Positions 15,062-15,491 of a stretch of 64,000 bases of DNA are shown here, piece after piece (position 1 is the first letter of the stretch; each line of letters opens with the position of its first letter). The DNA is taken from NCBI GenBank assembly GCA_017460085.1, contig JAFUBQ010000021.1, positions 9,228 through 73,227 of the forward strand, given 5' to 3'. The notes below the pieces were generated by a model. That model made no database searches and was not told the DNA's origin. It saw nothing but the letters and a program-made list of their open reading frames with translations. The translations under genes were made by a program, and so were the position numbers. This DNA comes from Alphaproteobacteria bacterium. GTDB taxonomy: Bacteria > Pseudomonadota > Alphaproteobacteria > RF32 > CAG-239.

Positions 15062-15491
15062 TCCTTTACCATCGGTCGGACGAGCTTTTTCCCCTGCCGT
15101 TTTTTGAGGTTTAGGCTGTTTTTTTTGTTTTTTATTCTCTTTTTTTACCGGTGTTTTGGTGCTTTTAGATTGTGTTTTTTGTTCTTTGGAATTCTATTCT
15201 AATTCAACTCCAGCCTCTCTCAAAAAACCTGCTAAATTTTCTAAGCCTTTTGTTGTTCTTTCTTTAGCCATAATATTATGCTCCTCAAAGTAGTCCTACT
15301 TAGCCTTACTGTAACACCAATTACGACTTTTGTCAATAAAAATAACAAAAAAAATTAGCAGATTCTATTTACGAAAAAGCGCATATGCTCAAATATATAC
15401 GGCATATTTATTTAGGCATATAACATACCAAAACGTATGTATTTATTCACAACACATATGTCCTAAAAAAAGCACCTGAAAAGTAATATAT

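What the first reader, a model, noticed from the sequence alone, without database searches (positions are those of the whole stretch)
15180..15290. In-frame TAG separates a strong RBS+ATG mini-ORF from the 1359-aa effector-like gene
The best translation signal upstream of the large gene is GAGGAG-N9-ATG at 15271 (minus). It opens MAKERTTKGLENLAGFLREAGVELE, then an in-frame TAG (15196-15194). The same frame continues without interruption (NSKEQKTQSKSTKTPVKKENKKQKKQPKPQKTAGEKARPTDGKG LFELAMQMR...) into the 1359-aa ORF. The ORF's own candidate starts (TTG at 15061; ATG six codons later) have only weak Shine-Dalgarno support. Three readings are possible: a recent nonsense mutation marking an N-terminally truncated pseudogene, stop-codon read-through, or a coupled leader peptide.
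Basis: seen in the sequence. Interest (0 to 1): 0.6.

Follow-up and report, generated by a model that had tools for sequence, protein, structure and literature searches.

The report
Premature amber stop in orphan gene
A single C-to-T change has turned codon 26 (glutamine in related sequences) of a large, uncharacterised bacterial gene into a stop codon, so the "mini-ORF" is the cut-off original start of that gene: an ordinary nonsense mutation, not a recoding or leader-peptide device.

Summary
On the minus strand, GAGGAG (15286-15281), a 9-nt spacer and ATG 15271 open 25 codons. TAG follows at 15196-15194, and the same frame then runs open to TAA at 10982.

The window belongs to a ruminant-gut "Alphaproteobacteria bacterium" MAG. 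NCBI annotates only the 1354-aa remnant, starting at ATG 15046.

Two homologues, L001 (intact, 1766 aa) and L003, keep the same -35 box, Shine-Dalgarno sequence and ATG. Both read CAG (Gln) where the window has TAG. The window codon is therefore a CAG-to-TAG nonsense mutation in a formerly continuous gene of about 1429 codons.

It is not an assembly error: contigs from two other biosamples also carry TAG.

It is not recoding:
- TAG ends bamB, a TpsB gene and a third ORF in this window.
- 18,319 sense codons of the window's ORFs contain no in-frame TAG.

It is not a conserved leader peptide, because the homologues fuse the two parts. The nearest in-frame restart codon lies 133 nt downstream and has a mis-spaced Shine-Dalgarno sequence.

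Most likely this is a young pseudogene or hypomorph. Low-level restart giving a protein that lacks 70-75 residues cannot be excluded. The gene belongs to a tiny orphan family with no recognisable domain, so "effector-like" is unsupported. Interest is low.

The parts
15308..15336 (-). Sigma-70-like promoter TTGACA-N17-TACAGT (TG before the -10 box) upstream of the ancestral start
   Evidence: One search gives 10 of 12 matches, the best in the region. The TTGACAAAA -35 box and its distance to the ATG are conserved in L001 and L003, where the -10 box is TAAAAT. This is a consensus match only; function is inferred.
15281..15286 (-). Shine-Dalgarno GAGGAG, 9 nt before ATG 15271
   Evidence: Pairing energy is -8.5 kcal/mol at 8-nt spacing, against a window median of -5.6. 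AGGAG is conserved in L001 and L003.
15197..15271 (-). Ancestral start codon plus the first 25 codons of the gene, now a stand-alone 25-codon ORF
   Evidence: It is homologous to residues 1-25 of P0002 (17 of 25 identical) and to L003.
15194..15196 (-). Premature amber codon TAG, where L001 and L003 have CAG (Gln)
   Evidence: The same TAG is present in independent assemblies L002 and L004.
15047..15193 (-). Codons 27-75: Lys/Gln/Pro-rich linker (net charge +10), now stranded between the stop and the first usable start codons. It contains A7 (15146-15140), A6 (15133-15128) and A8 (15126-15119) runs.
   Evidence: Codons 27-70 differ at 5 of 132 nt (96% identity) from L001. By direct reading of the sequence, the stretch holds no in-frame start codon before TTG 15061.
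15044..15061 (-). Candidate restart codons TTG 15061 and ATG 15046 (the annotated start of MBQ9035657.1)
   Evidence: The SD-like AAAGGA sits at spacing 0 and 14 nt respectively. In L001 the same place reads AAAGAA.
10982..15271 (-). Whole ancestral coding sequence (1429 codons plus TAA), interrupted only by the TAG at codon 26
   Evidence: dN/dS against L001 is 0.12-0.53 in the conserved blocks.

Best explanation
The TAG is a genuine CAG-to-TAG (Gln26-to-amber) transition in a lineage-restricted gene that used to be one continuous ORF of about 1429 codons. That ORF was expressed from the promoter at 15336-15308 and the strong SD and ATG at 15286-15269.

In this strain, ribosomes that load at the strong site make a 25-residue peptide and terminate. 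The 1403 codons downstream have lost their translation start. The first in-frame start codons, TTG 15061 and ATG 15046, lie 133 and 148 nt downstream and have mis-spaced SD-like sequences. The body of the protein is therefore either not made, or made only at a low level as a form lacking the first 70-75 residues (the N-terminal helix-like leader and the Lys-rich linker).

The locus is best described as a young pseudogene or hypomorphic allele. The annotated 1354-aa 'hypothetical protein' is its remnant.

Shown: the sense codon in homologues, the conserved upstream start signals, TAG acting as a normal stop in this genome, and the allele's presence in independent samples. Inferred: the loss or reduction of expression, the recency of the mutation, and the direction of change (two homologues, no outgroup).
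For: 1. Homologue P0002 (1766 aa, intact) begins MAKEKTTKDLSQLAALLNEAGVELKQNSKEQKTQSKSTK... Its DNA (L001) reads CAG where the window reads TAG, with the ATG, the AGGAG and the TTGACA -35 box conserved.

2. A third locus, L003, also reads CAG.

3. tblastn aligns P0002 residues 1-296 across the TAG in one segment.

4. TAG is an ordinary stop in this genome. Three of 32 long ORFs end in TAG. One is bamB, which is followed in the same frame by der/engA; another is a ShlB/FhaC-type TpsB. There are 0 in-frame TAG codons among 18,319 sense codons, and coding density is 86% under table 11.

5. The allele is real. L002 (biosample SAMN15829994) is 100% identical over 10 kb including the TAG. L004 (SAMN15829979) is 99.94% identical and also carries TAG. 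The exact 1354-aa product is called on 7 contigs.

6. The downstream starts are poor, and the internal SD-like sequence is not conserved in L001.

7. The body shows long-term purifying selection against L001 (dN/dS 0.12-0.53) and carries no other lesion in 1403 codons. That fits a recent event.

8. From established knowledge: C-to-T transitions are the commonest base change in AT-biased genomes, and CAG to TAG is a one-step route to a stop.
Against: - Only two homologues exist, and both sit in a different genomic context (next to an ABC transporter). They may be paralogues rather than orthologues, and there is no outgroup to polarise the change.
- No copy of the window-type locus with CAG has been sampled.
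- The 1403-codon body is perfectly intact on 7 contigs. This is also what one would expect if a truncated protein were still made and useful.
- The contigs carrying TAG come from one study and are nearly clonal, so 'independent' means independent samples and assemblies, not independent lineages.
- Expression was not and cannot be measured here.
Confidence: 0.8

Rival explanations
1. The gene is still functional. After the amber mutation, translation restarts at ATG 15046 or TTG 15061, either by re-initiation of terminating ribosomes or by weak de novo initiation. The product is a 1354-1359-aa protein without the leader and the Lys-rich linker. The annotation is then effectively right and the N-terminus is dispensable.
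For: - The downstream ORF is intact over 1403 codons and identical on 7 contigs.
- The stretch between TAG and the ATG is A-rich with little predicted structure, which favours ribosome access.
- The first 25 codons are the fastest-evolving part of the conserved N-terminal region (dN/dS about 1 against L001, and 4 of 25 residues differ between L001 and L003), so they may be weakly constrained.
- Precedent from my own knowledge: early amber mutations in E. coli lacI allow restarts at internal AUG, GUG and UUG codons (Platt et al. 1972; Files, Weber and Miller 1974).
- The C-to-T change also completes two overlapping -10-like TAGAAT hexamers.
Against: - The restart codons are 133-148 nt from the stop, which is far for termination-reinitiation.
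- Their SD-like AAAGGA is at spacing 0 or 14 nt and is not conserved in L001.
- Promoter-like matches are as common here as in shuffled sequence (19 found against 14 ± 3.9 expected).
- L004 may carry a second in-frame stop at codon 181.
- An intact ORF is equally expected for a very recent lesion in a near-clonal population.
Confidence: 0.2
2. There is programmed or natural read-through of the TAG. A suppressor tRNA, pyrrolysine, or a TAG-to-Gln reassignment would allow the full 1429-aa protein to be made.
For: The frame is continuous across the TAG, and the homologues have Gln there. Gln is what a glutamine amber suppressor or genetic code 15 would insert. The base after the stop is A; from memory this is not the strongest termination context.
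Against: - TAG terminates bamB (der follows in frame 4 codons later), a TpsB gene and a third ORF.
- There are no in-frame TAG codons among 18,319 sense codons, and coding density is 86% under table 11.
- Read-through sites are normally conserved as stops, but the homologues have CAG.
- The window holds no tRNA gene.
- There is no significant RNA structure around or after the stop (z = -1.6) and no Rfam match.
Confidence: 0.03
3. The 25-codon ORF is a regulatory leader peptide (uORF) translationally coupled to the large gene.
For: It has a strong SD and ATG, is short, and lies directly upstream in the same transcript.
Against: - In both homologues the 25 codons are simply the N-terminus of the large protein, so the split is not a conserved design.
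- The stop is 133 nt from the nearest start codon, whereas coupling normally needs overlap or a few nucleotides (established knowledge).
- There is no attenuator-like or terminator structure and no Rfam leader.
Confidence: 0.03
4. The TAG is a sequencing, assembly or consensus artefact of the MAG.
For: The source is a metagenome-assembled genome, and single-base consensus errors and strain mixtures do occur. No reads were available to me.
Against: The same base appears in ENA assemblies of two other biosamples (L002 and L004). L004 differs elsewhere by 2 nt, so it is not a copy of the same assembly. The 1354-aa call, which requires an upstream stop, occurs on 7 contigs from NCBI, ENA and Logan assemblies. 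The difference is a substitution outside any homopolymer.
Confidence: 0.03

Closest known systems
Nonsense-mutation pseudogenes (disrupted genes) in bacterial genomes, for example the many single-lesion pseudogenes of host-restricted bacteria such as Salmonella Typhi or Mycobacterium leprae (own knowledge)
   Same: A single base substitution creates a premature stop early in an otherwise intact ORF. Homologues carry a sense codon. Annotation pipelines then call the longest remaining ORF from an internal start.
   Different: The affected gene here is an orphan with no known function, in an uncultured gut alphaproteobacterium. Loss of function is inferred, not shown.
Translational restarts after early amber mutations in E. 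coli lacI (Platt et al. 1972; Files, Weber and Miller 1974; own knowledge, not checked in the paper library)
   Same: An early amber codon is followed by in-frame AUG and UUG codons that could give an N-terminally truncated protein.
   Different: The restart codons here are 133-148 nt away and have poorly spaced SD-like sequences. No expression data exist.
Stop-codon reassignment or read-through systems (TAG-to-Gln recoding in some phages, pyrrolysine, amber suppressors; own knowledge)
   Same: There is an in-frame TAG at a position where relatives have Gln.
   Different: TAG is used as a genuine terminator in this window and never occurs in frame elsewhere. The codon is not conserved as TAG in the homologues.

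Membership tests
Gene disrupted by a premature stop (nonsense allele or young pseudogene) | Homologues have a sense codon at the position of the stop and are continuous across it | tested here: met
   L001 and L003 both read CAG. P0002 is one 1766-aa ORF. A single tblastn segment crosses the TAG.
Gene disrupted by a premature stop (nonsense allele or young pseudogene) | The upstream start codon and ribosome-binding site are those used by the homologues | tested here: met
   The ATG, the AGGAG and the TTGACA -35 box are conserved at the same distances. The gene call for P0002 starts at that ATG.
Gene disrupted by a premature stop (nonsense allele or young pseudogene) | The codon is a real terminator in this organism | tested here: met
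   bamB, a TpsB gene and a third ORF end in TAG. There are 0 in-frame TAG codons in 18,319 sense codons.
Gene disrupted by a premature stop (nonsense allele or young pseudogene) | The lesion is in the DNA of the organism and is not an assembly error | tested here: met
   TAG is present in assemblies from biosamples SAMN15829994 and SAMN15829979. The 1354-aa product is called on 7 contigs. Read-level support was not available.
Gene disrupted by a premature stop (nonsense allele or young pseudogene) | The full-length product is no longer made, or expression is lost | not testable with these tools
   This needs metaproteomics, metatranscriptomics or Ribo-seq. Only weak restart sites were found.
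Programmed stop-codon read-through or TAG recoding | The stop codon is conserved at that position in relatives | tested here: not met
   L001 and L003 read CAG.
Programmed stop-codon read-through or TAG recoding | In-frame TAG occurs in other genes, or TAG is absent as a terminator | tested here: not met
Programmed stop-codon read-through or TAG recoding | A suppressor tRNA(CUA) or Pyl machinery is present | tested here: inconclusive
   The 64-kb window has no tRNA gene. The rest of the genome could not be examined.
Leader peptide or translationally coupled uORF | The small ORF is conserved as a separate ORF in relatives | tested here: not met
   It is fused to the main ORF in L001 and L003.
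Leader peptide or translationally coupled uORF | The stop of the uORF overlaps or abuts the start and RBS of the downstream gene, or controls an attenuator structure | tested here: not met
   There is a 133-nt gap to the first in-frame start. The SD is poorly spaced. No terminator or significant fold was found and there is no Rfam match.
   Pfam gave 0 families. NCBIfam gave nothing meaningful. The PDB sequence search gave 0 matches. The AlphaFold model had mean pLDDT 40 and was unusable.

The most novel reading that the evidence does not exclude
The amber allele is not a dead gene but a functional re-tooling. The same C-to-T change ends translation of the leader and also completes two overlapping -10-like TAGAAT hexamers (15201-15196 and 15196-15191). 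The strain would then express, from an internal promoter or by restart at ATG 15046, a form that has shed the 25-residue leader and the Lys-rich linker. The allele would persist because that form is advantageous.
Probability: 0.08. Interest if true: 0.35.

Novelty: new member of a known kind. Interest (0 to 1): 0.15.

Why it matters
The main value is for annotation. MBQ9035657.1 (IJ099_06865) is annotated as an intact 1354-aa hypothetical protein, but it is the 3' remnant of a gene of about 1429 codons with an amber codon at position 26. It should be flagged as disrupted.

The case also shows how a strong, apparently orphan RBS and ATG upstream of a weakly initiated long ORF can mark a recent nonsense mutation.

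The biological payoff is small. The gene belongs to a tiny orphan family of uncultured ruminant-gut bacteria with no known function, and nothing points to recoding or a new regulatory mechanism.

Tried and rejected
1. Searches for more relatives, to see the codon in further strains, found almost nothing.
- Two scans of GTDB representative genomes and two scans of JGI metagenomes found nothing.
- An exhaustive phmmer search of the 288 residues after the TAG against 1.84 billion representatives gave only two fragments, P0003 and P0004, plus spurious low-complexity or repeat hits, P0005 and P0006.
- The third word-indexed search, with the central domain, gave nothing.
- Searches did not re-list P0001 or P0002, so negative results from that tool are weak.

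2. Function of the large protein could not be assigned.
- Pfam, NCBIfam and PDB sequence searches were all negative.
- AlphaFold on the conserved central 515 residues with a 2-sequence alignment gave mean pLDDT 40 and pTM 0.22, so no fold search was run.
- The most that can be said is that the model's secondary structure is all-helical, and that there are weakly hydrophobic Gly/Ala-rich segments at residues about 877-970, acidic low-complexity linkers, and C-terminal repeats shared with P0002.

3. No read-through or attenuator RNA was found. The fold z-score was -1.6, the only Rfam hit had E = 0.99, and the terminator-like matches, none on the gene's strand, were no more frequent than in shuffled sequence.

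4. TAG reassignment was rejected.

5. I considered the giant neighbouring ORF as a positional counterpart of L001's gene. This was rejected: its neighbour is a TpsB, not L001's ABC transporter, and tblastn finds no second copy of the family in the window.

6. Provenance rests on an inference. The ENA assembly names 'XIEF21-1' probably refer to the ruminant gastrointestinal MAG study PMC8199421. This is inferred from the name only.

Full report
**1. Observation**

Reading the minus strand and translating it confirms the finding to the base.
- GAGGAG lies at 15286-15281, followed by a 9-nt spacer and ATG at 15271.
- Twenty-five codons follow (MAKERTTKGLENLAGFLREAGVELE), then TAG at 15196-15194.
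- The same frame then runs open (NSKEQKTQSKSTKTPVKKENKK...) through TTG 15061 and ATG 15046 to TAA at 10982. The ORF is 1359 aa from the TTG.

A sigma-70-like promoter, TTGACA-N17-TACAGT at 15336-15308, is the best match in the region.

Pairing to the anti-Shine-Dalgarno sequence is -8.5 kcal/mol with 8-nt spacing for ATG 15271. The median for 22 other genes of the window is -5.6. The internal candidates have their only SD-like element (AAAGGA) at spacing 0 (TTG 15061) or 14 (ATG 15046). By direct reading of the sequence, no in-frame ATG, GTG, TTG or near-cognate start lies between the TAG and TTG 15061.

**2. Where the window comes from**

The 1354-aa product starting at ATG 15046 is identical to NCBI MBQ9035657.1, 'MAG: hypothetical protein IJ099_06865 [Alphaproteobacteria bacterium]'. 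The window is 40% G+C with 86% coding density under the standard bacterial code. The gene sits between an HxlR-family regulator (upstream, same strand) and transketolase.

**3. What relatives show**

The family is tiny. The word-indexed search of 5.8 billion proteins found only one other full-length member, P0002 (1766 aa). An exhaustive phmmer search of 1.84 billion representatives, using the 288 residues after the TAG, added only two fragments.

P0002 begins MAKEKTTKDLSQLAALLNEAGVELKQNSKEQKTQSKSTKTPVKKENKKQKKQPKPQK.... This is the window's 25-codon 'mini-ORF', then Gln, then the window's post-TAG sequence.

At the DNA level (L001) the ATG, the AGGAG and the TTGACA -35 box are conserved, and the codon aligned with TAG is CAG. 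A third locus, L003 (a Logan contig), also reads CAG and keeps the same start signals. tblastn aligns P0002 residues 1-296 to 15271-14384 as a single 83%-identical segment across the stop.

The result is the opposite.

**4. Real allele or artefact?**

L002 is an ENA assembly of biosample SAMN15829994. It is 100% identical to the window over 10,065 nt and carries TAG.

L004 comes from a different biosample, SAMN15829979. It is 99.94% identical over 3,404 nt and also carries TAG. Its two differences show that it is not the same assembly.

The exact 1354-aa gene call, which presupposes an upstream stop, occurs on 7 contigs. The change is a substitution outside any homopolymer. I therefore treat it as a real allele that is fixed, or nearly so, in the sampled and nearly clonal population. 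Read-level confirmation was not possible.

**5. Recoding excluded**

Three of 32 long ORFs end in TAG.
- One is bamB. Its TAG is followed four codons later, in the same frame, by der/engA. Reading TAG as sense would fuse two genes that Pfam assigns to unrelated families (a BamB beta-propeller and the EngA GTPase).
- Another is a ShlB/FhaC-type TpsB.

The window's ORFs hold 18,319 sense codons with no in-frame TAG, against 210 CAG and 472 CAA. The window has no tRNA gene. The RNA around the stop is not unusually structured (z = -1.6), and Rfam has nothing there. A programmed read-through site would also be expected to be conserved as a stop, and it is not.

**6. Leader peptide excluded as a design**

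In both homologues the 25 codons are simply the N-terminus of the large protein. The stop is 133 nt from the nearest possible start, which is too far for classical coupling. No attenuator-like structure is present.

**7. Most likely mechanism and consequences**

A C-to-T transition converted Gln26 (CAG) to amber. Ribosomes loading at the strong RBS now release a 25-residue peptide.

What follows is inference.
- The 133-148 nt of untranslated, A-rich, C>G message may reduce downstream expression further through polarity or mRNA decay.
- Any protein made must start at TTG 15061 or ATG 15046. It would lack the leader and the Lys/Gln/Pro-rich linker (net charge +10).

The body has been under purifying selection in its history (dN/dS 0.12-0.53 against L001 in four conserved blocks) and has no other lesion on 7 contigs. 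The event is therefore recent, or a truncated product is still useful. The data cannot separate these two possibilities.

L004 has a possible second nonsense change (AAA to TAA at 14731, codon 181) and a missense change (14697). Both lie within 90 nt of its contig end and may be assembly-tip errors.

My estimates for the locus are as follows.

| Reading | Probability |
|---|---|
| Genuine nonsense mutation of a formerly continuous gene | about 0.9 |
| Effectively null or strongly hypomorphic | about 0.6 |
| Appreciable truncated product by restart | about 0.2 |
| Read-through, leader-peptide design or artefact | a few percent each |

**8. The gene itself**

No Pfam, NCBIfam or PDB sequence match was found for either family member.

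The window protein and P0002 are mosaics:
- a conserved N-terminal domain (83% amino-acid identity);
- an acidic Ala/Glu/Thr/Pro low-complexity region of different length in each;
- module insertions unique to each;
- a highly conserved central region (91% amino-acid, 94% nucleotide identity) ending in Gly/Ala-rich, weakly hydrophobic helices at about residues 877-970;
- diverged C-terminal repeats.

AlphaFold on the central 515 residues gave pLDDT 40, so no fold comparison was attempted. 'Effector-like' is therefore unsupported. The most that can be said is that this is a large, partly disordered and possibly membrane-associated protein of a lineage-restricted orphan family.

Similarity between the window and L001 starts at the SD and is confined to the gene, and the flanks are unrelated. 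L001 and L003 may therefore be paralogue-type copies rather than strict orthologues. This is the main caveat on the direction of the change.

**9. Comparison with what is known, and verdict**

This is a textbook amber mutation producing a disrupted gene whose remnant has been annotated as intact. The closest mechanistic precedent for residual function is translational restart after early lacI amber mutations (my own knowledge). It is not a member of the read-through, recoding or leader-peptide classes, because their defining features were tested and not met.

Interest is 0.15. Novelty is a new instance of a known kind.

Noticed in passing
window 15191-15223 (minus strand): The C-to-T change that makes the TAG also supplies the final T of a -10-like TAGAAT (15201-15196), which is preceded by TTGAGA at 16-nt spacing. 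It also supplies the first T of a second, overlapping TAGAAT (15196-15191). L001 reads TAAAAC and CAGAAT at those places. Such consensus matches are about as frequent here as in shuffled sequence (19 against 14 ± 3.9), so this is probably coincidence.
   Followed up: partly
L004 3316 and 3350 (window 14731 and 14697): The contig from a second biosample carries the TAG plus AAA-to-TAA (a second in-frame stop at codon 181) and GAG-to-GCG. The 3000 nt of upstream flank show no differences. Both changes lie within 90 nt of the contig end, so they could be assembly-tip errors or genuine decay or heterogeneity of this gene.
   Followed up: partly
window 22738-39462 (-) and 39698-41455 (+): A 5574-aa giant ORF lies divergent from a ShlB/FhaC/Omp85-type transporter with POTRA domains. 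This looks like a two-partner secretion pair (TpsA-like exoprotein plus TpsB). The first and last 1000 residues of the giant ORF have no Pfam match. The TpsB gene ends in TAG.
   Followed up: partly
window 1320-3995 (-): bamB (2682-3995) ends in TAG. der/engA (1320-2669) starts four codons later in the same frame, giving a second 'in-frame TAG between two ORFs' in this window. This one is plainly two separate genes.
   Followed up: yes
window 10982-15285 against L001 5987-9690: The two family members are mosaics with sharply different divergence. The first 25 codons are 80% nucleotide-identical and the next 44 codons 96%. The rest of the N-terminal domain is about 87-89% identical, the central region 94% and the 3' part 76%, with module insertions unique to each. 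The flanking genes are unrelated. This pattern suggests recombination or gene conversion between copies.
   Followed up: partly
L003 2474-3177 and 303-2062: The Logan contig has 1-nt indels in or near A-runs that break the homologue into 46-aa and 166-aa calls. Its ABC-transporter gene is also split (408 + 157 aa). This is likely read or assembly error, but slippage-prone A7, A6 and A8 runs also exist in the window's Lys-rich linker (15146-15140, 15133-15128, 15126-15119).
   Followed up: no
whole gene family (window 10982-15271; L001; L003): The family is extremely narrow. Among about 15 billion predicted proteins, only the window allele, one 1766-aa homologue and two fragments were found. 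GTDB species representatives and JGI metagenomes hold nothing.
   Followed up: yes
window 15492-16022 (-): The mechanical ORF for the HxlR-family regulator is 176 aa from a TTG. The Pfam domain covers residues 79-167, and gene callers on L002 and L004 start it at window 15830 (112 aa). The long ORF is therefore probably over-extended.
   Followed up: no
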